DNA from: Lingula anatina
Lineage: Eukaryota; Animalia; Brachiopoda
Length of the DNA stretch: 64,000 nt
Direction of reading: 5' to 3'
Assembly (NCBI GenBank): GCA_051362555.1
Contig: CM120641.1
Coordinates: 29,146,401 to 29,210,400 of the forward strand
Shown: piece by piece, positions 2,629-64,000 of the stretch
How positions within the stretch are numbered: the stretch's first letter is position 1
How the letters are laid out: every line of letters starts with the position of its first letter
Notes under the pieces: generated by a model
What the model was told of the DNA's origin: nothing
Seen by the model: only the letters and a program-made list of their open reading frames with translations
The model's database searches: none
Translations under genes and position numbers: made by a program

Positions 2629-13758
<11,130 letters not shown>

Positions 13759-13792
13759 TGTTACTTCCTGAAGATGTGTACTACCTAGGGCT

Positions 13793-13957
13793 GCTTTATA
13801 AAGTTGAAACTGATATACAACTGGCACAACACAGTCAAATTAGTTCATTAATATAAAGCAGCTACCTCCACGCAGCTTGACCTCCGTTGCAAGTGACCTT
13901 GAGCAGGAGGTGTGACCACTTATAATCCAATCAAGATGTTCAGTGTATATGACGTCA
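13793..13957 (-). promoter_or_regulatory. Candidate GDH promoter: TATA, ERR element and CRE
   Basis: TATAAAGC on - strand at 13800-13793; TCAAGGTCA at 13902-13894; palindromic TGACGTCA at 13950-13957. Motif matches only. Confidence 0.45.
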
Positions 13958-21180: not shown

Positions 21181-21664
21181 AAAATGATTGATGTTAAATG
21201 TTTGATTTGAGTTCGAATATAGACATAGAAAAATGATTGATGTTAAATGTTTGATTTGAGTTCGAATATAGACATAGAAAAATGATTGATGTTAAATGTT
21301 TGATTTGAGTTCGAATATAGACATAGAAAAATGATTGATGTTAAATGTTTGATTTGAGTTCGAATATAGACATAGAAAAATGATTGATGTTAAATGTTTG
21401 ATTTGAGTTCGAATATAGACATAGAAAAATGATTAATGTTAAATGTTTGATTTGAGTTCGAATATAGACATAGAAAAATGATTGATGTTAAATGTTTGAT
21501 TTGAGTTCAAATATGGACATAGAAAAATGATTGATGTTAAATGTTTGATTTGAGTTCGAATATAGACATAGAAAAATGATTGATGTTAAATGTTTGATTT
21601 GAGTTCAAATATAGACATAGAAAAATGATTGATGTTAAATGTTTGATTTGAGTTCAAATAGACA
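21177..21664 (+). repeat. 49-bp minisatellite, about 10 copies, starting at the IFI27-like stop codon
   Basis: Unit ATAGAAAAATGATTGATGTTAAATGTTTGATTTGAGTTCGAATATAGAC; starts at 21177, 21225, 21274, 21323, 21372, 21421, 21470, 21519, 21568, 21617. Confidence 0.97.
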
Positions 21665-23910
21665 TACAAGGTATACTTGTCAGCTTTGAAGATGAGTCGG
21701 GTATTTAGATAACTCATCAGTGACCAATTCACCTTAGGCCAAAAGAAGAACAATGCTCTTAAAACACAAAATATTTGTTAAGCAAGATCATTGTAAACCC
21801 TACTTTTCTGATTGTTCTACTTTCTACATTATTCTCTGTCTCAAAACTTTCTTTGCATGTTATTTGTTTGTTCAGCTTTGAACTAACTCCATTGTCTTAT
21901 TAAAATGTTTCTAGGTTTTGAATTGTTAATTTGGTTTGCATGTTGAAATACATGTACAGTAATGAGTAAAAGTGTTCGGATTGCATCGAGAAACACTCCT
22001 AAAACCGAATAAAATGTAAATCACTATGGTCACGTAAATAAACATAGTGAATACAGGCCTATGTGATATTTTGTTGGTTGTTTTTGCCATTTCTCACTTG
22101 AATAATTATGTACTTTCATGAACAGTTACATTTACGCATTTACCAAGGGCTAAATCCAAAACATTATTTGTTTGAGTGAGCTTACTGCAACCGGGTTTAA
22201 GTAAAAGTAAAAGTCAAAATTATAAAATGTGCCATTCTTTATTCTACGATGTAAAATATGGAACAATACAATACACCACTGTACCTTTGTCTTCACAAAA
22301 CCAACAATGCAAACTGTCCAACTCCTTCATTTGCAATACAAATGCCAGGACAGTCCAGCAATATACCTCTTAAACATGATACATTTTGATTGTCAAGAAT
22401 AAGACACGAAATACTAGTGTATATTTTATGAATGTTAATATTTCTGCGTATGGGCAGCTACAACTTCAAAATAGTAATGTTTAAACCAAACTCCAAGGCA
22501 AAAATGCAAAGGGCACTTCTGTGTCTGGTGACAAATGACCATACTGCCAAAATGGGGAAAGAAGTTCAATTTGACTGTGGCTATGAAATACTAAATAGCC
22601 TAAAAACAACATGCTTGATAATTTACAAAAAAGCTTTGATAATTGAAAGCAAACAAAACCAAATTCATGAAGAGGCACTTGGTCCAAGACATGTTTTAGT
22701 ATAAGTTGTAACTTGTTAAAGGCAAGTTTATATTTATAATACCTATATCACATATAACATTGATAAAAACTGTGCATACATATAGTTAAAATTCAAGTAT
22801 AATTACACTGCAGTATTTGTTAGGACTAAAGGGAAATGCAGTGTACAACAACAAAGTTTGTTTTGTGAAATTAATATATAATCACACATGTAATTTAAGT
22901 TGTATTTGACTGGAAAGGACTAGCCAGTGTAAAGTGAAGCAAATTACATGAGAAATCTAATCGCAGTGCTGGAGGATAGTATGATAATGAATTATGATTA
23001 CATAATGACATAATTATAAAAATAATTGGATGATCCTTGTGTTTTATGTTAACCATTACAACCTTGAAAAGCAATAAGCTGGTCTGCATCTCTCAACACC
23101 ACCTCTTCATATTTGGATAGGGGTAGTTTGTTTTTTTACATAACAACTAATGTGAAAGACACTCATGCTGTTCTTAACAATCAAGCAAGAATATTTTTAA
23201 TATTAACTGGTGAACATTGGAATAATTGCATCAGCCCTACCAAAATCATCTGTGGCACTATATCACATACTACCTGCTTGCAAGTTTGCTAAAAACTAGG
23301 AAATTTGGGTTTGGTTTAGCCTAGTTTACTGTACTAACTGTCCTTCAATTAAGTCATACCTCATACAAGAACAGACTGATACGATACTTCAAGTTGAATA
23401 AAAAGTAAAATTCAAATTGTGCTATGGATTTTGATTATTGCAATATTTCTATCAAAAAGAGTGACAAGAACATGCGATTTTTGATTTACATTCTGAATAA
23501 AAAAAATAATAAATAAATAAAAAAATCTAAAACTGTTTATTAACCAACTTGCGCACACCCCCCTTTCTCAGGCCCATTTCATGTGATGTCTTACTATGTA
23601 TTCAGATGATATTACTCCGTTACATTCAAAAGGAACGCATTATCACTCTATACCTCATGTCTCCAAGATATGCATAGCTAAAGCATCAGTTAATATAACA
23701 CCCAAAATGAGACCATTATTGAGACAAAATAGTTCAGACAATTGAAAAGTTTTACAGAACTGTAACATGAATGTCAATATGATTATATAGAAAATATACA
23801 GAGGAAAATTTCCCATAAAGACCTGAATTAAAATGGAAAGAAACCAATCCCTCCCCTTCACTGCCAGATATTATCGGGACGGGCGATAAAGAAGTTTTGA
23901 GACACTTTAG

Positions 23911-29900: not shown

Positions 29901-31004
29901 TTATTGAGGACACCATAATTCATCATTTAAGCATTTTGATAGCATTTTGAATATTTTGAAGTTGAAATGAACCAAGCTATTATCTATGCACATTGCTTAA
30001 AATTTGATGATTACTTTATCAGTTTAAAGGTGGGGTAAAAATATACAAATGGCTTAACTGATAACAATTGCCTATATATGGCATTTACTTCCCATGGCAC
30101 CTTTACTGTCTAATAAATTACTATCGAAGCACTGCAAATACCTATTGTGCAAAGGTTCATGTTAGCATGTTAACTAAACACAATTTTTTTGAAAAATTAG
30201 GACTTAGTTGCAATTATGACTTATCATGAGCAGACTTAAAAGCTCTGCTATTAAAAACAGGATTAAGTTCACCAGTTGCACTATATAGTACATACAAAAT
30301 ACACAATGCCATCCTCACTTTATTACTGTAATCATTAGATAGTACAGTTGCATGTTTCTTAACCACGAAAAAAAATTACCAAATTATATTATATGGAAAA
30401 GGTAAAAATGGAATATTTGGTGGACATGTAAAGCGGTCTTCAATCTGTAATGATAAAAGGGGGGGGGGGGGTTGCACTGTTTTACTGATGTTTAATCTTC
30501 TTCATTTTTAGTATATGGTCCTAAAATCCACAATTTAATTGCATTATTATTAATGTCGAGGTTTAAACAGTTTCATCAAATCTAAATTTAATCTCTGCAT
30601 GCACGTATTAATTTTAATTTTTATTTTCTAAGCTTGATAGACTTTTTTCTTCAAGATTTCATTAATTATTATCTTATAAGCTGGGTGATTGAAATGATAA
30701 CATTTCATTAAAATCTATGAAACACATATAAGTCCAATATAAACATGGAAGTTTAGTATATATATATTCAAACGTAAAACTGAAAAGTTTGAAATACCTG
30801 CATTTCCTGGTTCGGAAACAAGTGACCGATTCAACGACGATCCTTCAAAACATGTCTCTGTTTTTGATTATTTACACAAACGCTACAAATTTTAAATCAA
30901 CTAGGTGCTAGTATACTCACCCAAAAGAACACATTGAATCCAAATACGAGGTACTTAATACACAGACTAACTTCAGAGGTGTCTTTTGATCGTCGCTTCG
31001 CCAT
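23911..31004 (-). CDS. Tetraspanin, TspanC8 subgroup (TSPAN5/14/17/33-like), 271 aa
   Basis: Exons 31004-30921, 27622-27425, 27178-27104, 26460-26362, 25912-25793, 25369-25322, 24612-24499, 23988-23911 (all phase 0, 816 nt). Four TM segments, GFLGCVGALREN, NYREDPDLQNLIDWVQ, CCG and eight cysteines in the large loop (YFNC, CGVPFSCC, QCG, GC). Confidence 0.95.
24894..25154 (+). mobile_element. HINE family A, copy 2
   Basis: High similarity to 16916-17157 including both ends. Confidence 0.8.
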
Positions 31005-31245
31005 TTTGTCGCCTTGTTGGTCTGTCACGAACTTCAACAAGACAAGTACCCTGACGTCATATTGCCGTACAGGATCTCTAGAATTATCTAACGACAGCAG
31101 GACAAATAAATTAGTGACTATTCCCAATTTTTTAAATCTCATAATGTTTTGTAAACAACAAACTGAGTTTGTGTTTCATAACCTACTATAATCGTTACTT
31201 AAACCCACTGATAATTATAAAACATTGTCGTTAAACCATACCAAG
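31005..31245. promoter_or_regulatory. Compact bidirectional promoter
   Basis: Divergent ATGs (31004 -, 31246 +) separated by 241 bp; TGACGTCA at 31052-31059; both starts sit in a YY1-type AANATGGC context. Confidence 0.7.
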
Positions 31246-39464: not shown

Positions 39465-42024
39465 ATGGATGATTATGTCAAAATAGAAAAGATTGGAGAA
39501 GGTGAAGTTTTCCAAGAAAATATTTGTTCCCATCATTAGTTTACTGAGACTAAAGTTGTGTGTTTAAAAAGTAATATGTATTTCAAGGGGACTCAAGAAG
39601 TTTTAAATTTATTTATACATGTTTTGGGGCTCAGAAATGAAGGCCTAACTGGGCTTTGTAAGCAGCTGTGAATGTTAAACTTGATTGGTAAAGTTGGTCA
39701 TATTGATGCTAAATTTTTAAAAAATACTTATGAACCTTTTTTTTTCACCTATAGGAACCTATGGGGTTGTGTACAAAGGTAGAAATAAAAAGAACAACAA
39801 AACTGTTGCACTGAAAAAGATCCGTCTGGAGAGTGAAGAGGAAGGAGTCCCATCAACAGCAATTCGGGAGATTTCTCTCCTGAAGGAATTACAGCATCCA
39901 AATGTTGTGAAGTAAGGAGACGGTTAACATTTTTATATTTTGTGCATATGATGTACGTCTTTTAATATAATGGTTGAGTATGGACATGGAATGATTTTAT
40001 TTTGTTATAGGGACTAAACTTGGTTTGTGTTAAAAAAAACCTGTCTTTAAGTTTCATATTTTAAGTTATAATGGAGGTCTGTGGACTCTATTGAAGCTTA
40101 ATTGAAGCTGTGTACATACTCTCTTATATAAATGTTATCCAAATACTGTATTTTTTTTTTTAACTGTAGAACAAAGAGAGGGGTCAATGCTTTTTTTAAG
40201 TCTGTCACTTATTACATGCAGTGTTAACATATCACAGTACTGTGCACTTTTATATTATTTTCAGTTTGGAAGACATCTTGATGCAAGAGAACAAGTTGTA
40301 CTTAGTATTTGAGTTCCTATCCATGGACTTGAAAAAATACATGGACTCCATTCCCTCAGGCCAGTACATGGACAAGATGCTTGTCAAGGTATGAACTTTA
40401 CACACCTGTAACACTTTTGGTAACCATTGATTAGTTTCTTTTTTCCTTTGAATCTTCACTTGTGATAAGACTTTTTTTTAAAGGAAAATCTTAAAAACAG
40501 TTTACCAAACAGATTCACTTATTTTATCATACTTATATTACATATTTGATAATGGAGCAGTTTTGATAGTATTTGATTAAATAACATACTTTACCTACAC
40601 CCCCACTTTTTTTTTTGTCTCCAATAACATGCCATTTCTTTTCTATAACTTCAGAGCTATTTATATCAGATCACCCAGGGAATTTTGTTTTGCCACCAGA
40701 GACGTGTGCTTCACAGAGACCTGAAGCCACAGAATCTGCTGATAGATAACAAAGGAGTCATCAAACTGGCTGACTTTGGTCTGGCAAGGGCTTTTGGTAT
40801 CCCAGTCAGGGTGTACACTCATGAGGTAGGGTTTAGGCGGTCAAAAATGATATGTAAATTTGTACTTCCATAAAATTTCTTATATAGTTTGAGAGAATTG
40901 CAGTCTGTTAAATAATCATGCCAAGCATGCCATTGTTAAATAATCATGCCAAGCATGCCATTTGATAAGGTAGAGTAGTAAAACAGTAGAACAAAGTGTG
41001 AATATTAAAAAAAAAAAAAATTCCATACCAGTGATGCATGTAAATTGTTGAAATACAACAATGACTAGCTGAAAAAGGAACCAGGTTGTGACCCTGTGGT
41101 ATCGAGCACCCGAAGTCCTCCTTGGCTCCCAGCGGTATTCCACACCCATAGATGTGTGGAGCATAGGCTGCATCTTTGCCGAGATGGTCACCAAGGTCCC
41201 CTTGTTCAGGGGAGACTCTGAAATTGACCAACTTTTCAGAATTTTCAGGTAAAGGACAAACAAAACATAAGTCATTGGTCAATGAAAATAACAATAACGA
41301 ATCTCAGATTTTTACTATTAACTGAAAGTCATTTTTATAATTTAACCACTATTTATTTATATTAAATTTTTGTTTGTTTGTGTGCATGCACACATGCAGG
41401 GTGTCACCAGTTTCTTAAAAAAAAAAAAAAACAAACTTCCAGCTTACCTTTGAACTAGTTTTTGTTTTTACACTAGTCCAGCATGCATTAATCTAACCTA
41501 ACACTGTTCACATAACAGGACCATGACCACCCCAACTGAAGAGAACTGGCCTGGCGTGACCAGCTTACCTGACTACAAGCATACCTTCCCCAAGTGGACC
41601 AAAAATCAGTTGGAAACTTCAGTCAAACAGTTGTGCAGTCAGGGACTGGATCTTCTTCAGGTGACTGTTTATTAATTTTTTTTCACCATTTTGAGTTAAA
41701 ACTTTAATTAACTTTTTATTTAGAAAAAAGCTTTAATTAAGAATTATTTCAGTTGCAAACTCCCTATATTTAATTGGCTATACCTTAATTTTTTTTAACT
41801 TATTGGCATTTTCGGTTTTTAACGCTTGTTATGAAAGTTTTAGTGCGTGTCATAAATGTCAAACAACAACAGCATTTGTCACCTTTGATTATTGGCTGCA
41901 TTGTTTGTTTCTGTTTCAGAAAACCCTCATCTACGACCCTGCCCAAAGGATATCTTGTAAAGCCATGCTTCTGCACCCATATTTCTACGATTTGGACAAA
42001 AACACTTTGCCCGCCCACTGCTGA
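39465..42024 (+). CDS. CDK1: Cyclin-dependent kinase 1 (cdc2), 299 aa
   Basis: Exons 39465-39501, 39755-39911, 40265-40388, 40655-40825, 41085-41248, 41519-41660, 41920-42024 (900 nt). [79 protein letters not shown]. In-frame ATG also at 39459; AATAAA at 42967. Confidence 0.98.
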
Positions 42025-48300: not shown

Positions 48301-49048
48301 TTTAATATATATAATTATAATTATAATAGTTTTTAATATATTTAATTATAATAATATGCCCCCAACAGCCATTATAATAAAAATGATAATATGAGTAATA
48401 GTAAAGTTTTAATCTGCCAGTGTGTGTGAGTGTATGTGTTATGAAATGCATTAAAAGGGGAAGTTACATTACTACCTCGGGCTTAAATAAAAATGAAATA
48501 AGACTATGACTAAAAGAAAAGTGAAGTTGAAAATTGTGGACAAAAGTACTATGATTAACTATAATATTTACAAAGGTGTTTGAGAGTCTGGTAAAATCAT
48601 ATACCCCGGTACATGTAGGACTTATTCTAAAAGCTTTTTATTGACCAGTGATTTCTGCTTCTAAGATTTAAGTAAAATAAAAGGTAATGCAATTAATGAA
48701 ACATTTTTACTGCTATGGATGTGCCCAGAATTATTCCTTCAATAATTTTAAATTTGACAAAAGAAAGTCTTTCTTTTGACTAGGACTAGGTTTTGACAAG
48801 GATCAGTTTTTTTTTGGTAGTTCTATAAGCTCTGGTAAAATTGCAAACACTGAAATACTTTTACATGTGGTAGTAGAGATTTTGTACTTAAGCATTGACA
48901 AAATGTCTCTTTCATCTCTTTTGTACATATAATGGTGAAATTAAAACCTTTTGAACCTCATAGTTATTTAGTTTCTTTGATAAAGAATAACTTCATTTAT
49001 ATATTTATACATGTATATGAAATGTCTCATCATTTTAATGTCTTACAG

Positions 49049-52000
49049 GACTCTCACTCTTAGAAAGATACATGACCTACTGTGATGTGTACAAGAAGAG
49101 GGGTGGTTCGAGTCCTGGCTCAGATGACGACGATCAAGATGTACTGTACCAACGTCAAGGCCATTACAACCCATTCCTCCTTACAAAACTCCTCAAAAAC
49201 TACAGATCACATCCTGCTATCCTCAAGCTTCCAAACGAACAGTTCTACGACAACGAGCTAGAAGCCTGTGCTGACCGACTTGCCAGGGAGTCCCTCTGCA
49301 ACTGGGAAGGTTTACCAAAAATGGGGTGTCCCTTTGTATTGCATGGAGTGGTTGGGGAGGACATGAGGGAGGAAAGGAGTCCATCATTCTTCAATCCAGA
49401 AGAAGCAACTATTGTGTTGGGATATGTGGAGAAGCTACTGGAGGCCAGAGGCATCCGAGTCTTGCAGAATGAAATTGGAATTATTTCCCCCTACAGAAAA
49501 CAAGTGAGGGAAATATGACAGAGCTTATTCCATGATGAATACAGGCAACCCCTTCCCAGTCCCTCTCCCTTTTCAAGTTACTAACAACAGTTTGCAATAT
49601 CAAATCGGGCTTCACGCCAAATGCCAATTCATTGAAGCTGCCTAGTAAAACTTTGCAAATTTGTTTACAATTATTAACTGGGCCTTTTTGCTGAGTTAGG
49701 GCAATAGATTCTAAGAATGTGGCGTAGCTCTAAAGAGCCAGTAGTCAACATTCTTTAAAGGTCCAACATTCCATTTACCTTAAAGTACAGCCACAATACA
49801 TCTGAGTTAATAGTATGTTATAGATATGGTACTGTTAGGCTTATGAAAAGCCCTACTTTAACTACAGAAGTGTACATGTGATAAAGTATAAAGAAAAATT
49901 TAAAAAATTAAAATTAAAATTGTGGTGAATTTGCTCACTCCCATCTCACATGGCAAATTCAATTACTAATCCACCTGAGCTTGGTTATAATGTAATGTAC
50001 TAACAATATGCAGCCTGTTCAGAGTTATGGCTATATAACTACTAGTAAAATAAGATAAAGATAAAGTAAATGCTGAATGTAACGGATGAGTATTAAATCA
50101 GGCGCGTAGCCAGGGGGGGTTCGGGGGTTTTAAAGAACTGCCACTTTTGCTGGGAAAAGGTCCACTGTGGGTAAAATTTGATCTAGGTACATGAAGTTTT
50201 TATGGAAAAGGTCCACTTTTTCAGAAAAAGAACCCCCCTTTTGAAATTGCTGGTTACGGGCCTGTAAATGCACAGACATCCCTTTTTATTCTCTCCACAG
50301 GTTCAAAAACTGAGGCAACTGCTGTTCAAGAAAAACTTTCGGGACATAAAGGTGGGCAGTGTGGAGGAATTTCAGGGTCAGGAGAGACGGGTCATCATGG
50401 TGTCCACCGTGAAGAGTAACCCCGATTACCTGGCTCTGGACGCAGAGTTCAAGCTGGGCTTTTTAAAGAACCCAAAGGTCAGTCATTTGTACACTTATGC
50501 ATGTGGACACACAAACTGGGGTAGAGTTAACACTGCCCAATTAAGCCAAATGCTAAAACTGACTTCAATTGGCTAAACAAAATAGGGTTGATTTGACTTA
50601 TTTTAGTCAAATTTAAACCATTTTGGAGAAAAAAGTGATGAAAAAGTAGTAATTTGGCTTTAGAAAAAATTGCTAGTGCCACCTCAGCATATGGTAATAA
50701 CTTGATTTTTTTCAGTAGGGGGGGAAATCGTGAATTTTACAGATGCGGTATTTTTTAGGCCATTAATTTTTAAAATTTTGATACTCCTACCCAATTCCTA
50801 TTGGATGGTCACAACAGAATAAAAAAGTAAGCTACTCTATAGTTCTAATCTGTGCAGTAAGAGTACCACTAATACTATATACTTCATGTGTTTATAAAGG
50901 TATACATTTGAAAGTTTGATAATTTTTGCCCATTAGTGTTAGTGATTAGTGATAGTGTCGTTACCATGATTGTGCTGTGGCATGTGTACATGCGTGAACA
51001 CATAATTCATAAGACTTTGTACATGTGGATGTGCACACACATATTTTGAAATGTAAGGTTATTTAAACAGCTATAGTCCATACTATTTTCATCACCATTT
51101 CTTTCCACTATGGCACTGCAGAGACTATGCCATGTGATGCGGAATTCACAGAAGAGATATGAACAGTTAGTCTCAGACTATACTGTCTTCAGTGTTAACC
51201 TGCACATACAGTTACATGTGGGATTAATTTTTTTTCAGAGGTTTAATGTGTCGATCACAAGAGCAAAGGCCCTATTGATTGTTGTAGGGAATCCGTTTCT
51301 TCTTTCGCAAGATGAACATTGGAACAGGTGAAGTGAATTATTTTAATTTATTTGATCAGTAAGCAAAAAAAGTTCAATCAAATTATAAGACTTTTTCAAA
51401 CCAAACACAAATCAGCCATGTTAGGTTCAAAATTTTTTTCCTTTATTTAATCTTTATTTAATCTCATTGTTTCTAAGAACTCTTGTTCAGACAGACAGAC
51501 AAACCAACAAAAAAAGAAATGTTAAAGATTTAATAAAGTTCATAAATTAAATTTTTAATGTTTGTTCAGACAGACTGACAAAAAAAAAAAAAAAAAACAG
51601 AGGATAGAAAGATTAAAAAGAGAAAGCTATCATGTTTTAGTTCAGACAGACTGTTAAATGAAAAAAAAATAGAAAAAAAAAGGAAAGTTAAAAAACATGT
51701 AAATTAAACTCCAAACTGACAGACAAAATAGTGTCTACTAGGCAATTCTTTCTTTTATTGTGAATGAAAGTCCATACAGAAAGACAAAAGAAAGTAGGCA
51801 ATTCTTTCTTTATTTTCAACTTCTCTTTGGTGTAGTTTCCTTAAGTACTGCCTCGAGAAAAAAGCGTACACAGGATGTGATTACGATGACCCTACTGATC
51901 AGCTCGACGATGTCGTAGAGAGGTTTGCTGCAGTGAATATTAAGCAGTCAGGTACGAGCAGGATTTATTGCAATCAATTTCTCTGTTGAATATTTTATTT

Positions 52001-52206
52001 TCTCAGATTATTGGCTATAAATAATCTAAATCATTAGGACTGAAAAGTCAGAATTTCAAATAAATTGCATGCACATGTACTATCTACTAGCTGTCATCTT
52101 GCATTTTCATTACTTAAAGTCCATTTTCAAGAGCAACTATTTTCTTCTTGTCTGTCATGTTATTCAGACGTACGACAAGTAATGTGTCCAAGATTTATTG
52201 ATTTTA

Positions 52207-52244
<38 letters not shown>

Positions 52245-52350
52245 TGCACCATTTAAACTTTTTTGGGAATATATTATTTTTCAAGATGTAACCATGGATG
52301 TCAGCCAGGTTCAGTTGCAAGAGGACCCCGAGTGGAGAGGAGAGGCCTAA
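49049..52350 (+). CDS. MOV10: MOV10 RNA helicase (UPF1-like SF1), C-terminal about 300 aa only; 5' exons not found in the window
   Basis: Exons 49049-49503, 50301-50477, 51239-51327, 51836-51951, 52286-52350, all in frame. [87 protein letters not shown], C-terminal DPEWRGEA*. Confidence 0.9.
50099..50264 (-). mobile_element. hAT-like MITE with 5-bp TSD (copy 2)
   Basis: Reverse-oriented homolog of 14483-14652; TAAAT on both sides. Confidence 0.85.
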
Positions 52351-55300
52351 TTTTAACTCTGTATTCTCAACTGTATTCTCAACTCAGATTCTTCTGTGAT
52401 CAAGAGGAAATGCAAGATCTTTTACTAGGGGACCCTGAATTTGAAAATCAAAATATTATGACGAATAAGACATGGAGGCTAGAGAAACTGATATAATATA
52501 ATATTGTTGACCACGATATAAAGCTGCCTCATGTATATTAAACTATGACATCTACCTGTAAACGCAGACTTATCAAACCTTGCAAGTTCATCTTTTTTTC
52601 TGGAGAATGGTACATTCAAGTGACATGACGTTTATTATGAAACAATTGAGGATATTACTTACTTAAGCCATATTTTATGGTGCTTGAAACTGTGGGCATT
52701 TTTTGTCACTTGATTTTAGAGAGATTTTGATAGATATCATGTAGTCAGATTAGGTACAACTCTGTTAAAGAACTTGTGAATCACTAATTGTATGAAAATA
52801 ATCAAAATTGGGGTTTGAATAATGCTTCAATAATTGTCTTAATCATTTTGACTTGAGCCTATTTTATCTGTGAATATCAAATTTTAATATTTTTAATAAC
52901 ATTTTATCAGTGTATTTCAGATATGCTTCATGAAAAAGTTTTAAATTGACAGGAGTATTTTTATAATAAGTCAGTTTTAGAAATCAAATTGATTCTATAC
53001 AGTGAAAATGTAAAATTCCAGAGTATATTTTTAACCAATGTTTTCTGTAATGTATCATACAGTGTGACTGTGTTTGTTCTCACCCTATGGGGAGGCAGAG
53101 CCTTCAAACTAACTATTCCTTGCACTTGCTTTACTAAATGTTTGAAGCTGGTTTGTAGTCTAAAATCTGAGCCTATAAAGACTTAGCTGGCTAAGTTGCA
53201 CTTCACAGTTGTAAGAATCTTACAGATAGCCTAGGCCAGAAATAACTGATAAGTTGCAATGACTCACTGTAAAAAAGGTTGGTAGATTGCATGAATCTAT
53301 TTGTGGTCTAAATTTTGTCTTTTATGCATATGTTTAATGAGAATAGCATCCAAAGGTTAAGGTTGGGCTTTCACTACACCAATCCCCTATTCCCCAAGAA
53401 AAGGTGCAAGAAAAGTTCTGATTTAATCAAAACTAGAGTATTGTTCGCTCATTAACCAAATTATCAATTTTGCCTCATTTTTTCCAGTCTTTTTACTTTC
53501 TTTTCACTTTCCTTTGATTTACATTTTGATTGTCTTGGCAAGTCTTTTACTTGCAGTGGTGTCAGTAGCCCATTTATGTATATTCTACTCATCAACTGTG
53601 GACCAATCATTCTTAAAAAATTGTAGTTGTAAGACAATATCGCAAAGTTGACTTTGTATAGTTGGCTATCCAGATTTAGCAGTCTAAGCTTAATTTTTTT
53701 GTGAAACGGTTCCCTTTTTTCAATGAGCCAGTATACAGTACCTAATCAGTATTGAATTTACATATTTTATCTTTATCAGCACAATAAGAATCTTGCCATC
53801 TACTTTGAATTTTCATTGTTATTAACATTTTAGAATTGTTATGGAATTAAGCTAATTATGTTATCAGTAAGAACAAGATGTTATTATAATGATACATTTA
53901 TGTACTGTGTAGATGCCAGTGCACTACTAAATTATGAGGAGAAATTTTTAATATTCTTTGGGATGGAGGAAACACAATTAATGAGGTTTTGGGGATTATC
54001 TTAATTTTGTGCAAAATTGGGCAACAGACAATGGTAATTTATGTACTAAAAATATATCAATAAAGCAAAAAAGAATGATAGTGCTAAGCTTTGTGGTGGA
54101 ACCAAAATTTTAAGAAACAGATTTTATGGGGTTGCAAAATATCGTGTGTATCACGTCTATAGACCTAGCAGTATAAAAAGCCTTATAATTCTTGCAAGTG
54201 GTTTCTTCTTAGTAATTTGGACATTTAAGGTAAATTGAGGACAACACCGCTTCACTAAGAAATGACGTAAAGTCACAAACTACAACGAAGATGGACTGTG
54301 AATTATACAAAAGTAATGTCTGATCGGAGAGTGGGGGTGCATTCGAAACACATGACCTATTGTCACTCTTACGTAGTTTTTTTTTAATTACACATACACC
54401 ATAATAATAACTTTAGCTAGAAGACACATTTTGTACGTCTAGTTCTAAGGACATAAGCCTACGGATGTATCCAATATATATTAGATGGGGTTGGGGTTTT
54501 TTACCCCTCCTAAAATAAATTTTAAAACTCGGTCAGAACTTATAATTTGATATTAAATAACTTAATTATAAATTTATAATTGTATATATATGCATTTAAA
54601 AAAGTCATCAAATCACGTTCCAAGACCTAAATATTTTCGTAATGTACGCCTTATGACACTTGATAACGTTCACGTGATTCAGATGAAGACAAAATGTGTC
54701 AAAAATATCTGAAATCGATATTGGGAAAGGGTTTAAGGGAATGATGTAAGGCACATGAGTAAACTGTGGTCACATAAAGAGATAATTCTAGTTTTTTATG
54801 TAATTATGCAAACATTTTCCGACTCATGCATGCCTCAAAGTATGGGAAGTTTAAATATTTTAAATATCGAAGGCTTTAAAAATATCCTATGTGGATAATA
54901 TTTACACGTTTTTAATACTAACAAAAATTAGACTGCTTTAAATAGGTATTACGACATGCACGTTTATTTTTGACACATTTTGTCTTCAACTTCGGTTGAA
55001 TTTTTCACAGTAATGAATGTTTGCTAATTGCTTTCTAAGAGAATGCAGTTTTTGCCGTTTAAAAAATTTGACTTTTCCCTGTCACCATTTCGTCTAGCTA
55101 ATCGTGGATGTAACTGAATTATAGATTCTATCAATGGCTAAAATATTACAAAAAAACATCAAACTGAAAATAATGACCCGCGACAAAAGACGCCCCGAAA
55201 AGTTTCTTTTTTCAATTTTTAAAAACCGGGCGACACCTCGAAGGTGGCCGCATTATTGCGTTATTCAAAAAATTCTAGTTATTTTCGGAGACGTTTAAAC

Positions 55301-55510
55301 GTCAGATTTAGTTGCTAGGCTGATGTAAGTAAAGTTTCACTTGGACAAACAATTCTTACGTTTAGTAATATAAAAAAAAGATAAATGGGCCTACACATAT
55401 ACTTGCATTATCTTTATAAAAAATCTTTTTCTGTTTCTGCTCAACTCATAACTCATGTTACTGGTGTGGGAGTACTGATAACCCGACGCCATGAAGGGAG
55501 ACGTCAGTTG

Positions 55511-55830
55511 TTAATTATTACCTAAATCAGTTGACGTTTTGAATATAGACATATACATTCACTCGTTTCTTCTGCCTTGCATTAGTAATATGATCCACTA
55601 CTGCTATCTTCCAGGCTATTAATTATTACCTAAATCAGTAGACGTTTTGAATATAAAAATATACATTCACTCGTTTCTTCTGCCTTGCATTAGTAATATG
55701 ATCCACTGCTGCTATCTTCCATGCTATTAATTATTACCTAAATCAGTAGACGTTTTGAATATAAAAATATACATTCAGTCGTTTCTTCTGCCTGGCATAA
55801 GTAATATGATCCACTGCTTCTATCTTCCAG
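55511..55830. repeat. 108-bp tandem repeat, 3 copies
   Basis: TTAATTATTACCTAAATCAG at 55511, 55619, 55727. Confidence 0.92.
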
Positions 55831-56389
55831 TTTTGTAAATCAATATAATTTGTTTTTTCATTTTTCAGAATAACAAGTCAGCTGATTACAAAATGTGTTT
55901 CAGAGTACTTGGGTGACTGAACATGCTAAGTCCAGTGTACTTCCAATTGTCTCTCTACAATTCACTACAATCAGAACAACCATACTCCCTCAGGCTGCCT
56001 CAAAAATGCAGTCACCCTACGCCAAATTACATTATCCACATTTTGGATCAGTGTTCAAATACACGCACACTAAAGTAGCCTGCGAGAAGTTCACAGCTAC
56101 CAGCTTAACGGACATCGGACCTATAAAAATTTTAGGGAGAAGGTATGTTGCTCAGAAATTTTCATCAAATTTGCCTGCACATTTCACAGACATTGCTTAG
56201 AACTTATTACTCTTATTATAAACAAACTGACAGGCAGAATAATCAAAATATAAAATATAAAAGAAAATGTATATGTTGATAAGATATTATTACCAACTTT
56301 GCGCATCACTATCAAAGGCCATCCCCTTTGAACAAGTTGACCATTGGTGACAACAAGAACGCCATCATGTGACTATACGTCAACAAAGG

Positions 56390-56423
56390 TATAAAAGCGC
56401 AAAATTTTAAAAGTGCGTTCACT
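56390..56423 (+). promoter_or_regulatory. TATA box and initiator
   Basis: TATAAAAG at 56390-56397 and TCACT with its A at 56421, 31 bp downstream; followed by CpG-rich sequence. Confidence 0.55.
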
Positions 56424-56782
56424 CAACAGCGGACAGATCTGGAGCAACAGGACGGATGCCATGTGCTGCGCCCTGTATCAAGCACAAAGGACACGGGAGT
56501 CGACTCCCATTTCTCCGAATCTTCTACTCATCCTACGTCAACGCATCGCTCTTCGACATATTGTTCCCTGCACACGCAGACGTCTAGACGGTGGATTCGG
56601 CGTTTCTCTTAGCTGGCCAGCTAAAATCTTCGCTTCTCCCCACGAGGAATCGTCGCTCGGTCATCTTCGCAGGATACTTCACCTTTTTGCTGTCGTGGGC
56701 TGGAGTCGTAGTGTCATTGCATATTCCCATGCTTTCCAGGTTTCTTTTTATTACAGGTCCAGGAAGCAGACTGCAAACTGGT

Positions 56783-57690
56783 GGGCGCCACCTGTGGGAC
56801 TTCGACTACACTCCTTAAGGTATGTAATCTTTTTTTCTTTTTGGAAGGGGGGTTTGAGAAATGAAAGAAATCTAATCTCGTTTTTATTTCTGTTTACAGG
56901 ACATAGAAGATGATGGGCGCCACCTGTGGGACTTCGACTACACTCCTTAAGGTATGTAATCTTTTTTTCTTTTTGGAAGGGGAGTTTGAGAAATGAAAGA
57001 AATCTAATCTCGTTTTTATTTCTGTTTACAGGACATAGAAGATGATGGGCGCCACCTGTGGGACTTCGACTACACTCCTTAAGGTATGTAATCTTTTTTT
57101 CTTTTTGGAAGGGAAGTTTGAGAAATGAAAGAAATCTAATCTCGTTTTTATTTCTGTTTACAGGACATAGAAGATGATGGGCGCCACCTGTGGGACTTCG
57201 ACTACACTCCTTAAGGTATGTAATCTTTTTTTCTTTTTGGAAGGGGAGTTTGAGAAATGAAAGAAATCTAATCTCGTTTTTATTTCTGTTTACAGGACAT
57301 AGAAGATGATGGGCGCCACCTGTGGGACTTCGACTACACTCCTTAAGGTATGTAATCTTTTTTCTTTTTGGAAGGGGAGTTTGAAAAATGAAAGAAATCT
57401 AATCTCGTTTTTATTTCTGTTTACAGGACATAGATGATGGGCGCCACCTGTGGGACTTCGACTACACTCCTTAAGGTATGTAATCTTTTTTCTTTTTGGA
57501 AGGGGAGTTTGAGAAATGAAAGAAACTCATCTCGTTTTTTAATTCTGTTTACAGGACATAGAAGATGATGGGCGCCACCTGTGGGACTTCGACTACACTC
57601 CTTAAGGTATGTAATATTTTTTTCTTTTTGGAAGGGAAGTTTGAGAAATGAAAGAAATCTAATCTCGTTTTTATTTCTGTTTACAGGACA
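56783..57690 (+). repeat. 132-bp tandem repeat, about 7 copies (52-nt exon-like + 80-nt intron-like)
   Basis: GGGCGCCACC recurs every 132 bp from 56783; each unit has AAG|GTATGT, CTAAT, a pyrimidine tract and TACAG|G. Confidence 0.96.
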
Positions 57691-57749
57691 CAACTGCAAG
57701 GAGACACCCCACATCTACACTTAAGCTACTTCGACCATCCCTTGGAGCC

Positions 57750-58640
57750 AGCGAGTCCTGCCATGGTCTCTCTACGAGGTGGCTTCACTGGGGAAGCGTC
57801 CAGCGAGTCCTGCCATGGTCTGTCTACGAGGTGGCTGCACTGGGGAAGCGTCCAGCGAGTCCTGCCATGGCCTGTCTACGAGGTTGCGGCACAGGGGAAG
57901 CGTCCAGCGGGTCCTGCCATGGTCTGTCTACGAGGTGGCTGCACTGGGGAAGCGTCCAGCGAGTCTTGTCATATGGTGTTTCAATGAGATGGAAACCACT
58001 TAAAGGTAAGCCTGACTGCAGAGTGCTGACATAGTATGAAAAGTCATTAATTCATTTTTCTTTCTGTTGACAGAACACAACTGCAAGGAGACGTCCCACA
58101 TCTACACTTAAGCTACTTTGACCATTCCTTGGTGCCAGCGAGTCCTGCCATGGTCCGTCTCTTTGATGTGGCTGCACTGGGGAAGCGTTCAGCGAGTCCT
58201 GTCATGGCCTGTCTACGAGGTGGCTGCATTAAGGAAGCGTCCGGCGAGTCCTGCCATGGTCTATCTGCGAGGTGGCTGCACTGGGGAAGCGTCCAGCGAG
58301 TCCTGCCATGGTCCGTCTACGAGGTGGCTGCACTGGGGAAGCGTCCAGCGAGTCCTGCCATGGTCTATCTGCGAGGTGGCTGCACTGGGGAAGCGTCCAG
58401 CGAGTCCTGCCATGGTCTGTCTACGAGGTGGCTGCACTGGGGAAGCGTCCAGCGAGTCCTGCCATGGTCTGTCTACGAGGTGGCTGCACTAGGAAGCGTC
58501 CAGCGAGTCCTGTCCAACGTTTCATGGCAACTGCAAGGAGAAGAGGGCCACTTGCACACTTCCGATACATCCCTCAATCCTTGGTGCCAGTGAGTCCTGC
58601 CACGGTCTGTTGAAGAGGCTGCATTGGAGAAGCGTCTGAA
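57750..58640 (+). repeat. 52-bp GC-rich tandem repeat in two blocks (about 4 and about 8 copies)
   Basis: Unit AGCGAGTCCTGCCATGGTCTGTCTACGAGGTGGCTGCACTGGGGAAGCGTCC; a diverged single copy near 59170-59225. Confidence 0.95.
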
Positions 58641-59483
58641 GCATATGGTGTTTCACTGAGGCGGAAAAACCTGCAAGGTAACCCGTGTTACTGGCGAGAA
58701 CAATACACTAAAATTAATTTTTCAGCAGCAGTCTGTGCCATAAACTTTTCACCCTACTGGCCATTCAGTCCACCTTCTTTCCTAAAAACTAGATATAGAT
58801 GTCTGAATCTTGATTCACTGGTTCGAATACAAAGTTCAATAGGACTAGACTGGATTGCATTAATATTTGTATTAACAAGACCTTGACATTTTTCTCGAAT
58901 CATGATGTAACAGTTACATTTAAAATAAATCAAAAGCTCTTCTTCATACTTATAGAAAAAATCTAACAGCCATGTCACCAAATTGACACATTCTGGAAAT
59001 CTACCGATTCCAACAATTTTTCTGGCTGCAGACTGCTTTTGATATACAATTTTTGAAAACTAATCAAATTTTCCTTTCTATTTACAGAACTCAATTAGGG
59101 CAATTCCTGATAAAGTCCCGCTTTTTTGAAAGAGGTGCAAGAAGAGGGTCACATTCAATCCTTGGTGCATGGTTGAGTCCTGCCATGGTCTGTATGTTAG
59201 GGGGCTGCATGGGGGAGCATCAGAAGCATATGGCGTTTCACAGAGATGGAAACCTATCAAGCCTTAAAAGGTACATATCACTCATGTTTTTGGGGGAAAA
59301 AACTAAATTGTCATTCATTGTATAGATAATACAAATCTTTTATCAGTGCAACTCCAACAAACTGAGCATTTTGTGCAAGGTCTTAGACAATTGTTTTAAG
59401 AATGTTTGGGACCTGTCACTCGGTGCAGGCATGTTTTCTATTTACAATTTACTCTAGCAAATTCAGTGCTCATTTTTCACAGG

Positions 59484-60741
59484 TAAAAAGCTCTTTTAAT
59501 TTGTCACAGATGTGGAAAAACCTTATCATTCATACAAAATATTTTGACATGCCATTCGTCAACTTTCAGATCCTCAACAGTCTCAATATTCTGCAGAACA
59601 TTGTCAATGGTCCAGATCACGTGGAGCTACCGCCCCCACCACCCACCACCACCAATGTGACTCCGGGGCGTGGTCACTGGTCCAGATTACTTGGAGCTAC
59701 CGCCCCCACCACCCACCACCACCAATGTGACTCCGAGGTGTGATTCACTGGTCCAGATTACTTGGAGCTACCGCCCCCACCACCCACCACCACCAATGTG
59801 ACTCCGAGGTGTGGTCACTGGTCCAGATTACTTGGAGCTACCGCCCCCACCACCCACCACCACCAATGTGACTCCGAGGTGTGGTCACTGGTCCAGATTA
59901 CTTGGAGCTACGGCCCCCACCACCCACCGCCACCAATGTGACTCCGGGGCGTGGTCACTGGTCCAGATTACTTGGAGCTACCGCCCCCACCACCCACCAC
60001 CAACAATGTGACTCCGAGGCGTGGTCAGTGGTCCAGATTACTTGGAGCTACCGCCCCCCCCCCCACCACCACCAATGTGACTCCAGGGCGTGGTTACTGG
60101 TCCAGATTACTTGGAGCTACCGCCCCCAACACCCACCACCAATGTGACTCCGGGACGTTGTCACTGGTCCAGAAATTGTATACTAGCAGCTACCACCCCC
60201 ACCTCCAGTGCTGTGGTTGTGGTAATAAAAGGCCACCGTAGAAGTGAGTATTTATTTCCATCTCTCTATATTGTTCAGATTGTTAGGCATTTTCCTGGTT
60301 TATATGCCTCCCTTTACGCCTCTTGTTCTCCAGTCACTTTCTTTTTGTAGAATCTTGGCACTCTCCCAATCAATGTTTTTTTGTGATGGTTCGTTGTAGC
60401 AGAAGGCTACCTTGGGCTGTAGTGTATTTTTCCCTCTTCGGGTACCCTTTCTTATTCCTTCCCGTGTTCAACTTTCTCTTTGTCTCTCCCATATAAATCC
60501 TTCACAAATTAAACACTTGATGGAATACTAGTACACTCCTCCCGCTGGATCTAGATTGTTCAGGCTTTACTTAAACTTGTCTTTGAGTAGAGTCGTTTAA
60601 ATGCTGTTAGTGTTCCTTTTCCTTCGTTAAAACTAATTTGTGCAATACCCCATTGTGACATTAAGTCTGAAGGTCGCCAGTGGCATGTCAAAATATTTCG
60701 CTTGAATGTTTTTTCCAAGTTTGTGACAAAAGTGCTTTTTA
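59484..60741 (-). mobile_element. Penelope-like retroelement 3' fragment (GIY-YIG endonuclease remnant) with inverted terminal segments
   Basis: - strand frameshifted YSIKCLICE / IYMGETKRKLNT (about 60527-60452) and NIDWESAKILQKESDWRTRGVK (about 60377-60312); 59484-59570 and 60666-60741 are diverged inverted copies. Confidence 0.72.
59608..60200. repeat. 70-bp tandem repeat, about 8 copies, C-rich on + strand
   Basis: Unit GTGGTCACTGGTCCAGATTACTTGGAGCTACCGCCCCCACCACCCACCACCACCAATGTGACTCCGAGGT; starts 59811, 59881, 59951. Confidence 0.96.
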
Positions 60742-63700
60742 TATTTATTTCCCATCAAACTGCTGAAACTTTAAAAACACATTTCATATACAAATGGTTG
60801 ACTTTTATTACATTTTGAAGTAATAATTTAAATTTGCAGGCTACCAAAAGTGGTGGATTCTAAAAATGAAGATTGCAACTACCAAACCTCCAGATGAAAC
60901 ACTTCTTCAGGATTGAGGGATCTTTATACAGATAACTTTGTAAGTTATTGGGGATCAACAACTTAAGAAAAGTGGTTCTGAATTTTTTAAGTATTATTAT
61001 TGGTGTATTATGGCATTTCTTATTATTGACAGTGATCAAAAACTATATCCTATGTAAACAAACAGTAAAATTAGAAGTAGCACAGACAGTCAACAATTTA
61101 ACATGTAGGCTAACATTACAATATTCAATATAGCAACATCTTTTCTTACTTTTTTGTCAAATGTTTGAAATAATTTATTTTTTGAAGACTGCTGTCTACT
61201 TACTCTAAAAAGTTAATATATATATTTCAATAAAGGAAGCATATTTCACTGTACATTTGGAAATAACGCTCTGATCATTTTAAGAACCAAGCTTTTCATT
61301 AATGTTAACGGTGTGTAAATACCAGTGATATACTTTCTTTGTTGCAGTTACTGCAAGCTTTCGATATAGCTTTTCATACTTTTGAGTAAAAGTTGGATTT
61401 CATTTGTAGGCTACGAATTGGGAGTTTTCCAATAATTACGCCTGCATGATGTCAGATAACGTCGACCCAAAACCAAATGTCCAAGATGTTGAACACTGTA
61501 CAGCGTTAGCAAGGAGCCCTGTGGACACCTTCATGGATGCTCGGACATCCCACGAGTTTTGGTGTTGAAGGACACGGCTTGTTCTGCAAACAAATATAAA
61601 GAATGTGGAATGGTAATGAAGGCAATATACAGTACTGAATGTAGTGGGAATACAGTCTAATAATGTATCAGTCTTTTGGATGCTGAGAATATTTGGGGTT
61701 CATGGGTCACAAACATGTCAAGGTGAAATTGCATCAAATTTCATTTGTATTTTATGCCTTATGCAGTGAACCATTTTATTTCAATAACAGAAGAGAAAAC
61801 TGAGGTTCAAGATAATTCTTCATTCCATACAAGATCAATTGAATAAGATGTGTGCTTCTGTAGGAAAAGTCTACCTCTACAGTTGCTATAATTATTATAT
61901 TAATAAATTTGAATATAGAGTTGCTTTATCCACATTCTGAATGCAGATAGTTTTTTGCTCACAAAAACATTCCCACCACTTGTGGTCGTCTGTGTTTTGT
62001 TTCAATCTGAGATGGTCATTTTTCAAATTTGTGCTTTTGATGATGTGGAGTTGTTTGTCAGTATGGCATTTGAAAAGGTCTTAACCTGCACACTAACCTT
62101 ACTAACAAACCCTCACATCTTTGTAAAATCTGACTTCATGTAAACGCTTTTACATGAAGAGATTTTACATTGATAGATTGTGCAAAATCTGTAATGAAAT
62201 ATTTTACGTGTGAGAAAATATTTCATTATATTTTTTGTACAGTCTGCTCTTCTTGAGAGATGCTGTCATCTCTCAAGATAGAGATCACATTACTAATATT
62301 CAGATTTTCTCAAGTGTTATACTTGACAAATACATCCACTTCATCACATATGCACCTTTTCTCCGGATCAAAAAAATTCAGATTGAAATTTACATGGGCG
62401 GTCATACAGTGTAATGTGAGATCCGAAATATTTTGAAGCAAGCTTGCTTTATTCTGTACTTGTATCATGCAGGTAGTTGCGATTTCAGTGCAAAGTTACA
62501 TTTTAGAAACCTGGTATTTTAAGTCGAATTATATATCAAAGTTTAGTTGAAATCATTGATATTCCCGAGTTATAATCATATTACTTGAATCTGTTTGCAT
62601 TTTATCATAAAGAGAACTATAATCAAGTTTTGAAAGATGCTTGCAGTTGTAAAATGATTAACTTTATTTATGGTTTTAATTCTCCAAAATAAAGTCAAAA
62701 TGATTCTGTTTAATTGTTATGTCTCTTGTTAGTTTTTTATTGGCTTCAGTGCCTTTTTCTGTAAGAATTACTTTAATAAGTTTTTATGCTTCACCTCGTG
62801 TATAGTATATATAGAGAATAGTTAGTCAACACAAAGGTTATTCCGTCACACAATGCTGTCTAAAACGGGACGATTCTTGAACTGTACGCAGCGCCGTGCC
62901 AATAGAAACCGATTTCGTCATGTTATAAGGACCGAATTATCCGGGCGTGGGCACTTTCCCGGCATTCCCCACGAAGGGTTTAGACGGGGTTTTCCCCACG
63001 GCCCGAGAGCATCTGGTACCAGTTTCCGACCACAAGACCTGCATTATCGGACTGTGTGCGTTCCGACGCTAGATGAAGACGATGGAAAATCTTAGAACTT
63101 TTGATAATACTGCTATGTATTAATTCATTGCGTTTACGTAGTTCATTACTGATTATTAGTCCTTTTTAAATCAACTGTAAATATTCAAAATTGTACATAA
63201 TAGTTGAATAAAAGATATTCTATAATTTTCTTTCTTTCTTTTTAATTTTTTTTTTTGTAAAAAAAAGTGGTCGTGTACAGATCGCTAAAAAAAAGCGAGA
63301 CTTGCAAATAAATTTAAATGGACTCGCATGTATGCTCGTTTAATCATTAGTAGAAATTATCCTCTTTCGCCTCTCACTTAAACTTTTACAATCTCGTCAC
63401 TATTTCTGTCACTCCAATTTCTTCCATAAAACTAGCCGATGTCCAGGTAATGAGTTGAATTTTGGTTTTTGGATACAAAGCTGTGGTGCTGCGTTACTTT
63501 GCTCTCCCGGGCCCCGTAACTCGAAAGCAGCGCGCATTGCGACCGAGCGCAAGCGTCTCGATTCCATTACTTGCCCATGCTCGCCCCATGTAATACACTG
63601 TAGCCTCTATGTGATATCGCCGTTCGCAATACGCGATGCTTTTAAGTTACGGAGCCCCAGGAATAACTCGAGCCGTTTCCTAGACTTTCCCGAGTCAAAT

Positions 63701-63881
63701 TAGAGAAGTAACTATCTTACTTAAATAAATCCCACTGTAGATTTAAGAACCCAACACCTCTTAATGTTAACGAAGGGGTACATTGTGTATAAATGTATAT
63801 GTTCTTGACTATAACACAAGTAAAACGAGAAAAAAACTAGTTTTTTCCCATTCCTGTGCCATTGTTATCCTTATCTACTGG

Positions 63882-63885
<4 letters not shown>

Positions 63886-63953
<68 letters not shown>
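63886..63953. repeat. (TA)n microsatellite
   Basis: Uninterrupted TA run. Confidence 0.95.
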
Positions 63954-63961
<8 letters not shown>

Positions 63962-64000
63962 TTGCTGTGGGAATTGAGGCCCAATTTTTTATATAAATGC

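What the first reader, a model, noticed from the sequence alone, without database searches (positions are those of the whole stretch)
56390..57690. Tandem array whose repeat unit is a complete exon plus intron, downstream of a TATA/Inr promoter
Each 132-bp unit is a 52-nt exon-like segment and an 80-nt intron-like segment with AAG|GTATGT donor, CTAAT branch point, pyrimidine tract and TACAG acceptor. The AG/GT sites are kept in all seven copies while indels fall elsewhere. Every 52-nt exon has stops in all three frames, so splicing would give a (52-nt)n concatemer RNA rather than a repeat protein. The only coding option is a repeated, overlapping 30-aa smORF that exists only after splicing (MMGATCGTSTTLLK|DIEDDGRHLWDFDYTP*). 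Candidate repeat-scaffold lncRNA, small-RNA or circRNA precursor, or polycistronic micropeptide transcript. No family that I recognise.
Basis: partly seen in the sequence, partly recalled or inferred. Interest (0 to 1): 0.8.

Follow-up and report, generated by a model that had tools for sequence, protein, structure and literature searches.

The report
Whole-intron repeat that spawns spliced exons
In a lamp shell (Lingula) gene, one short intron and its flanks are repeated seven times head to tail, and RNA reads show the resulting 52-base exons spliced together in part of the RNA while much of it keeps the introns; the RNA is likely non-coding and the array likely a by-product of repeat expansion rather than a dedicated device.

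Summary
The array is real: seven 79-80-nt GT-AG introns and six internal exons (five of 52 nt, one of 49). The organism is Lingula. RNA reads show plus-strand transcription from about 56,420, varying about 100-fold among runs. The predicted exon-exon junction is read (7, 26 and 10 reads in three runs), and RefSeq model LOC106172600 already translates through it. In the two high-expressing runs most RNA keeps the introns (intron/exon depth 0.74 and 0.68). The array is the 5' part of a roughly 6-kb transcribed region with three more arrays; relatives lie on three other scaffolds. 'Splice sites kept in all copies' has no statistical power at 97% identity. I found no snoRNA, hairpin or protein-family signal. 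A 121-136-aa first-exon ORF exists, but reads show lost start codons, a stop and frameshifts; a synonymous excess (p=0.016) did not survive filtering. Best reading: a whole-intron version of the 'mirage' splice-junction minisatellites, in a likely non-coding multi-copy RNA, where the copied sites are live. A functional repeat-scaffold RNA is not excluded (about 20%).

The parts
56366..56396 (+). Promoter-like cluster: CATGTG (E-box-like) at 56366, TACGTCA (CRE-like) at 56376, TATAAAA at 56390; motif names recalled
   Evidence: read depth rises from 2-5 to 8-17 over 56410-56560 in X1 and X2
56420..56819 (+). First exon, about 400 nt, GC 0.52, CpG o/e 0.93; start approximate; no internal joint seen
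56461..56819 (+). Orphan ORF: 121 aa if spliced, 150 aa if unspliced in this allele; 132-136 aa in RefSeq LOC106172600; start lost, stop gained or frame shifted in part of the reads
56782..57690 (+). 132-bp tandem array, 6.9 copies: 38 nt of exon end + 79-80-nt intron + 14 nt of exon start; seven introns, six internal exons (56900-56951, 57032-57083, 57164-57215, 57296-57347, 57427-57475, 57555-57606)
   Evidence: spliced and unspliced reads
57687..58005 (+). Module exon 1: head + 4.3 copies of a different 52-nt unit + tail ending in a GTAAG donor
58074..58677 (+). Module exon 2 (head + 7.2 copies of the 52-nt unit + second head and tail), after a 68-nt intron-like segment; predicted
   Evidence: RefSeq models of two relatives join sequence like 58677 to sequence like 59088
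59088..59270 (+). Module exon 3, diverged; predicted
59603..60173 (+). 70-nt C-rich tandem array, 8.2 copies, 38% C, 15 runs of three or more C; transcribed on +
60840..62450 (+). 3' part: exon ending 60939 spliced to 61410 (GT..AG, 10 reads in X2, 1 in X5); coverage to about 62450; 3' end not fixed

Best explanation
The array is a 132-bp tandem duplication spanning one whole 80-nt intron near the start of a transcribed Lingula gene, and RNA reads show its copied splice sites used in part of the RNA; it likely arose as a by-product of splice-junction repeat expansion inside a likely non-coding, multi-copy repeat RNA. Shown: anatomy, + strand transcription, the exon-exon junction, intron retention in much of the RNA, three further arrays downstream, relatives on other scaffolds. 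Inferred origin: the gene is built of older exon-intron modules; a slip or unequal crossover across the short first intron fused a downstream exon start to the upstream exon end, making one 52-nt exon, and unequal crossing-over multiplied the unit. Because the unit holds a donor and an acceptor in the right order, each copy is a working intron plus a new exon, unlike classic mirages. Inferred fate: each new exon shifts frame and carries stops, which only a transcript without coding constraint tolerates; spliced molecules that are translated from exon 1 would stop in the first 52-nt exon with many junctions behind, and would be nonsense-mediated-decay targets, leaving intron-retaining, probably nuclear, RNA to dominate.
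For: Strand-specific coverage, so RNA and not DNA (intron bins 138-147 on one strand against 3-4 on the other in X1; 189-199 against 0 in X2). Spliced-type reads against listed unspliced-type reads: 7 v 55 (X1), 26 v 86 (X2), 10 v 2 (X7); intron/exon depth 0.74, 0.68, 0.53. RefSeq LOC106172600 X1/X2, on the same 1.67-Mb scaffold as the MOV10 hit, translates through the same junction. The exon-1 end and 52-nt exon resemble the module head at 58524-58585 (p=0.003 and 0.009, uncorrected, 9 pairs tried); the 3' ends of the 80-, 68- and 410-nt introns are 79-81% alike. Three RefSeq models on other scaffolds match the module ORF and switch among its frames. No convincing relative outside Lingula. 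Reads lose the ORF's ATG (3 of 6, 2 of 7, 2 of 2), gain a stop (5 of 5 in X7) and carry 1- and 7-nt deletions. Mirages are described in PMC3087553 section 16.
Against: Expression is substantial and sample-specific (18-26 reads per million in X1/X2, about 4 in X7, 0.2-1.4 in X4/X5), with a promoter-like motif cluster, which fits a regulated, functional RNA as well. In X7 spliced joints outnumber listed unspliced ones. Variants in the exon-1 ORF frame are 11 of 22 synonymous (5.9 expected, p=0.016; 0.085 over six frames), though 6 of 16 (p=0.23) after dropping indel-adjacent calls. RefSeq X1 and X2 differ only by in-frame gaps. Two of three module heads tested against the 52-nt exon were not significant (p=0.10, 0.13). 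Only 60 of 226 (X1), 92 of 292 (X2) and 2 of 45 (X7) reads are 99% or more alike, so many may come from paralogues or diverged alleles. Neutrality, nuclear location and decay are untested.
Confidence: 0.55

Rival explanations
1. A functional repeat-scaffold lncRNA (Xist/Rsx/Firre-like): four blocks of local tandem repeats multiply protein-binding sites; the C-rich 70-nt block would bind an hnRNPK-type protein, and the row of slowly removed introns would hold the RNA in the nucleus.
For: Four arrays in about 3.4 kb of one transcribed region; 70-nt block is 38% C with 15 C-runs; about 100-fold range among runs, same ranking at both ends; intron retention; PMC6316617 passages describe this route to function.
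Against: No conservation outside Lingula could be shown (protein-level searches only); no structure beyond shuffles in 9 of 9 pieces folded (z -0.94 to +2.23); family members are dispersed and diverged; no localisation or binding data.
Confidence: 0.2
2. A young orphan protein-coding gene: exon 1 encodes a 121-136-aa protein and all arrays lie in a long 3' UTR, with splicing there tuning mRNA decay.
For: RefSeq models X1 and X2; first 96 aa identical between window and X1; synonymous excess p=0.016 before filtering.
Against: C-terminus differs by frame between alleles; ATG loss, stop and frameshifts in reads; out-of-frame ATG 5 nt upstream; no Pfam family; Atlas model pLDDT 0.46, pTM 0.16, no usable feature hit; one hit only, itself Lingula (near lengths only).
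Confidence: 0.12
3. A transcribed non-autonomous mobile element or segmental duplicon that carries its own promoter; the RNA is a side product of the element.
For: At least four loci on different RefSeq scaffolds; reads with 5-13 differences over exon 1; read ends at the acceptor that match nothing in the window.
Against: No terminal repeat of exon 1 elsewhere in the window; no transposase or RT domain in the ORFs scanned; element ends could not be sought without the genome.
Confidence: 0.08
4. One reading: host of an intronic small RNA, circRNA precursor, or polycistronic micropeptide message.
For: Repeated exon-intron layout as in SNORD115/116 hosts (PMC3413130 passages); junction reads exist, so the 30-aa smORF exists in some RNA.
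Against: No Rfam match at E up to 1 in 52000-64000; no C box and no CTGA D box; the intron folds as two weak hairpins, z -0.94; smORFs lie behind three ATGs of exon 1; both listed exon variants change the smORF's residues.
Confidence: 0.05

Closest known systems
Amphioxus 'mirage' minisatellites (Adh3, globins BflGb6/BflGb9, troponin C, PGBD5); PMC3087553 abstract and section 16 read, PMC3902484 passages read
   Same: Tandem repeat of 10-160-bp units that copies exon-intron boundary sequence with its splice signals; units highly alike; proposed there as a route to new exons and introns.
   Different: Described mirages copy one boundary in protein-coding genes and are reported not to disturb normal splicing. 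Here the unit spans both ends of a whole intron, the copied sites are used, and the host is likely non-coding.
SNORD115/SNORD116 host transcripts and rat Bsr/RBII-36 (PMC3413130 passages read)
   Same: Non-coding transcript of repeated exons and repeated introns.
   Different: Their introns carry C/D snoRNAs; no C/D box or Rfam match here, and the intron is only 80 nt.
Argiope MaSp2 and flagelliform spidroin exon-intron arrays (PMC9779670 passages read)
   Same: Homogenised exon-plus-intron unit (97.6% mean intron identity there, 97% unit match here), unequal crossing-over proposed.
   Different: Their exons code a repeat protein; the 52-nt exon shifts frame and carries stops.
Xist, Rsx, Firre local-repeat lncRNAs (PMC6316617 passages read)
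   Same: Several blocks of local tandem repeats in one RNA, one of them C-rich.
   Different: No evidence here for nuclear anchoring, protein partners or chromatin action; multi-copy family.
RefSeq Lingula anatina LOC106172600 (XP_013408834.1, XP_013408835.1); relatives LOC106164805, LOC106153014, LOC106173768
   Same: Same locus; the model's translation runs through the exon-1 to 52-nt-exon junction.
   Different: Annotated as uncharacterized protein; reading frame at the C-terminus differs from this allele; I saw only the proteins, not the gene models.

Membership tests
Mirage minisatellite | Tandem unit spans an exon-intron boundary and carries AG/GT signals | tested here: met
   here it spans both boundaries
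Mirage minisatellite | Unit 10-160 bp, copies 81-100% alike | tested here: met
   132 bp, 97%; ranges
Mirage minisatellite | Extra splice signals do not alter the spliced RNA | tested here: not met
   exon-exon junction reads in X1, X2, X7; RefSeq translation through the junction
Mirage minisatellite | Copy number unstable between haplotypes or cells | not testable with these tools
   no second haplotype or long reads held
snoRNA host with repeated introns (SNORD115/116, Bsr) | Repeated exons and introns in a non-coding transcript | tested here: met
   non-coding status is inferred
snoRNA host with repeated introns (SNORD115/116, Bsr) | C/D snoRNA inside each intron | tested here: not met
   no C box, no CTGA; Rfam 0 matches at E up to 1
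Mirtron cluster | Whole intron folds as one hairpin pairing its two ends (definition recalled) | tested here: not met
   two separate hairpins, ends unpaired, z -0.94
Spidroin-type exon-intron repeat gene | Exon unit keeps an open frame and codes a repeat protein | tested here: not met
   52 nt, stop in every frame
Xist/Rsx/Firre-type repeat lncRNA | Several blocks of local tandem repeats in one long RNA | tested here: inconclusive
Xist/Rsx/Firre-type repeat lncRNA | Nuclear retention, repeat-bound proteins, action on chromatin | not testable with these tools
   needs FISH, fractionation, pull-down
Protein-coding orphan gene | ORF kept intact and under purifying selection among alleles and copies | tested here: inconclusive
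   start loss, stop and frameshifts in reads against a fragile synonymous excess; variants cannot be phased or assigned to copies

The most novel reading that the evidence does not exclude
A regulated, brachiopod-specific family of nuclear scaffold RNAs that gained function by repeat expansion, in which a row of seven identical, slowly removed mini-introns acts as a retention timer: unspliced RNA stays in the nucleus and presents the C-rich and 52-nt arrays to proteins, while splicing sends it to decay. It would be an Xist/Firre-like design in a lophotrochozoan, with splice signals themselves as the repeated binding sites.
Probability: 0.12. Interest if true: 0.8.

Novelty: new variant of a known kind. 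Interest (0 to 1): 0.38.

Why it matters
The mirage papers propose that boundary repeats can give birth to exons and introns but report the spare sites as silent. Here one tandem event yields six extra exons and introns whose junction is read in RNA, so birth of exons by whole-intron duplication can be watched in a young array, and the share of spliced RNA differs among samples. It also marks a well-expressed, sample-specific repeat RNA family in a phylum where my searches found no described lncRNA of this kind. If the array is neutral, as I think likely, the interest is moderate.

Tried and rejected
No whole genome is held, so copy number, element ends and paralogue DNA could not be examined. 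The run search listed no indexed RNA holder; nine raw-read runs were offered by species label, of which five were laid (X1, X2, X4, X5, X7). Rfam: 0 matches. Folding: 0 of 9 pieces better than shuffles. Pfam: no family above cut-off on the locus's + strand ORFs or the five RefSeq proteins; weak hits to Peptidase_C58, DotD and IalB, and hits of the antisense repeat ORF to DUF6717, FERM_M, DUF6117 and PH_35, were rejected as repeat-inflated (no stretch passed alone). phmmer over 1.84 billion proteins gave 4 hits: two Lingula and two unrelated repeat-rich proteins (28% and 37% identity), rejected on reading their sequences. ESM Atlas: no usable hit. A 19-nt exon motif in metagenome contigs: 0 matches. 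Scan findings by sequence, near and relatives: none. A separate 63-nt exon at 56757-56819 and a donor at 56389 were dropped: coverage is continuous and no joint was listed. The predicted donor at 60244 showed no joint. Two papers on intron creation (PMC2791625, PMC1783408) were not held, and the original Adh3 mirage paper was not read. In one search one predicted exon start (59598) was one base off (59597 fits the AG), which affects only ORFs listed beyond that junction. Literature searches (listings only): Lingula anatina + long non-coding RNA + tandem repeat, 1 unrelated title; Lingula + lncRNA + brachiopod, 9 of 10 listed, none on this by title; mirage + minisatellite + amphioxus + exon, 2; repeated exons/introns non-coding, 1; searches gave no description of this locus. 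No supplements were opened.

Full report
Observation. It holds seven AAG|GTATGT donors and seven TTACAG acceptors, hence seven introns of 79-80 nt and six internal exons, five of 52 nt and one of 49 nt. Each exon has a stop in all three frames. The claim that splice sites are specially preserved has no power: about 8-10 mutational events in 132 nt miss the four GT/AG bases with probability 0.74-0.78.

Organism and setting. The gene upstream is MOV10, 96% identical to the Lingula anatina protein; it ends near 52,350. The window is thus from Lingula, a brachiopod. No whole genome is held.

Transcription. Reads of four runs were laid on 55840-56955, which holds the first exon, one intron and one 52-nt exon, so that all copies pile on one unit. 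Reads laid: 226, 292, 2 and 45 (X1, X2, X4, X7), or 18.2, 23.6, 0.2 and 4.1 per million. X1 and X2 are stranded: first mates lie almost only on the minus strand, which in most stranded libraries means + strand RNA and rules out DNA carry-over. Depth rises from 2-5 to 8-17 over 56410-56560, just behind TATAAAA at 56390; no sharp start was listed, and thin same-strand coverage exists upstream. Coverage is continuous to 56819, so exon 1 is about 400 nt.

Splicing. The predicted junction exists. Exon-to-exon joints number 7 in X1, 18 in X2 (plus 8 read ends that run from the exon into the next module head) and 10 in X7. Listed unspliced-type reads number 55, 86 and 2; reads that cross a splice site collinearly are not listed, so these are undercounts, and two mates of one fragment may both count. 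Depth over the intron relative to the summed exon depth is 0.74, 0.68 and 0.53; spliced reads may be laid less well, so these are upper estimates of retention. Most RNA in X1 and X2 thus keeps the introns; X7 is more spliced. Independently, RefSeq model LOC106172600, on the same 1.67-Mb scaffold as the MOV10 hit, translates through this junction (...LLK|DIEDDGRHLWDFDYTP-stop). These data cannot tell linear from circular joins, but the libraries with junction reads are poly(A)- or oligo-dT-selected.

The larger unit. Behind the array come two arrays of a different 52-nt unit (57748-57972, 58135-58512) and a C-rich 70-nt array (59603-60173). They sit in repeated modules of head, 52-nt units and tail, and the 3' ends of the 80-, 68- and 410-nt introns are 79-81% alike. 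On 60095-62600, reads number 325, 8, 12 and 41 (X2, X4, X5, X7), the same ranking as at the 5' end; X2 depth on the single 70-nt unit is 121 on average, about 15-20 per copy, against 28 per copy on the 132-bp unit; a 470-nt GT-AG intron is spliced in 10 X2 reads and 1 X5 read; the predicted donor at 60244 showed no joint; coverage reaches about 62,450.

A family. The module's ORF finds three RefSeq 'uncharacterized' Lingula proteins on scaffolds of 36, 346 and 687 kb. They move among the frames of the 52-nt unit, and two join sequence like 58677 to sequence like 59088. Many reads over exon 1 carry 5-13 differences, so paralogues or diverged alleles are expressed, and junction counts may partly come from them. 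Nothing convincing was found outside Lingula, but only protein-level searches were possible.

Coding potential. Exon 1 has an ORF from 56461: 121 aa spliced, 150 unspliced, 132-136 aa in RefSeq's allele, where the frame changes after residue 96; reads show a one-base insertion at that place in 4 of 15 and 4 of 21. Reads also lose this ATG (3 of 6, 2 of 7, 2 of 2), gain a stop (5 of 5 in X7) and carry 1- and 7-nt deletions. Against this, 11 of 22 listed variants are synonymous in this frame (5.9 expected, p=0.016; 0.085 over six frames), falling to 6 of 16 (p=0.23) when indel-adjacent calls are dropped and sites counted once; only 40 of 84 variant rows were shown by the tool. No Pfam family, no Atlas hit, pLDDT 0.46. 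The 30-aa smORF is real in spliced RNA but lies behind three ATGs, and its start also gives 28-44-aa ORFs unspliced. I judge the RNA likely non-coding, with a young ORF not excluded.

Small RNA and structure. Rfam finds nothing at E up to 1. No C or D box is present. None of 9 pieces folds better than shuffles.

Origin (inferred). The unit is 38 nt of exon-1 end, the intron, and 14 nt whose first four match the start of the exon at 57687. The exon-1 end and the 52-nt exon resemble one module head (p=0.003, 0.009 uncorrected among 9 pairs; two other heads p=0.10-0.13). A slip or unequal crossover between these related sequences across the short intron would make one hybrid exon, and unequal crossing-over would multiply it. 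Earlier unreviewed notes of this scan report frequent splice-boundary arrays in this genome; I did not test their counts, and none of the MOV10 exon edges mapped carries such an array.

Comparison. Mirages of amphioxus are tandem copies of one exon-intron boundary that are reported not to disturb splicing and are proposed to seed new exons and introns (PMC3087553 section 16; PMC3902484 passages). This array works like a mirage in origin but fails the 'silent' feature, so I file it as a variant, not a member. It shares layout with SNORD115/116 hosts (PMC3413130 passages) without a snoRNA, with Argiope MaSp2 arrays (PMC9779670 passages) without a reading frame, and with Xist/Rsx/Firre (PMC6316617 passages) without functional evidence. 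My searches (listings only) found no description of this locus.

Verdict. Real, transcribed and partly spliced; likely a by-product of repeat expansion in a likely non-coding multi-copy RNA (0.55); functional scaffold 0.2; orphan coding gene 0.12; mobile element or duplicon 0.08; small-RNA, circle or micropeptide device 0.05. New variant of a known kind; interest 0.38.

Noticed in passing
window 59484-59587 and 60652-60741: Two stretches 72-74% alike in inverted orientation flank the 70-nt array exon; they could pair in the RNA.
   Followed up: no
window 60290-60780, minus strand: Broken translation that resembles, from recall, the end of a Penelope-like retroelement; the one 55-aa piece scanned had no Pfam hit. 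It is covered by + strand reads in X2.
   Followed up: partly
window 55840-55953: Opposite-strand reads in X1 and X2 (depth 4-14), some with several differences; probably a repeat transcribed elsewhere.
   Followed up: no
window 56894-56898: Read ends joined in front of the unit's acceptor (4 reads in X1, 4 in X2) match nothing in the window: the acceptor and exon start may occur at other loci.
   Followed up: partly
window 20824-21666: Single-ORF IFI6/IFI27-family gene (PF06140, E 9e-23) with a 49-nt x 10 array starting right at its stop codon.
   Followed up: no
window 55511-55830: 108-nt x 3 array, 95% matches, between MOV10 and the locus.
   Followed up: no
window 49039-52350: 3' exons of MOV10, an RNA helicase of the UPF1-like group (recalled), lie 4 kb upstream on the same strand; thin read-through toward the locus is possible.
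   Followed up: partly
window 5199-13839, 30897-31175, 41737-42024: Exons of glutamate dehydrogenase (PF02812) and, by recall of the translations only, a tetraspanin and a CDK1-like kinase.
   Followed up: no
window 60462-60464: 5-6 first mates begin here in X2 and depth falls after; a possible alternative 3' end with no AATAAA just upstream (nearest at 60224 and 60508).
   Followed up: no
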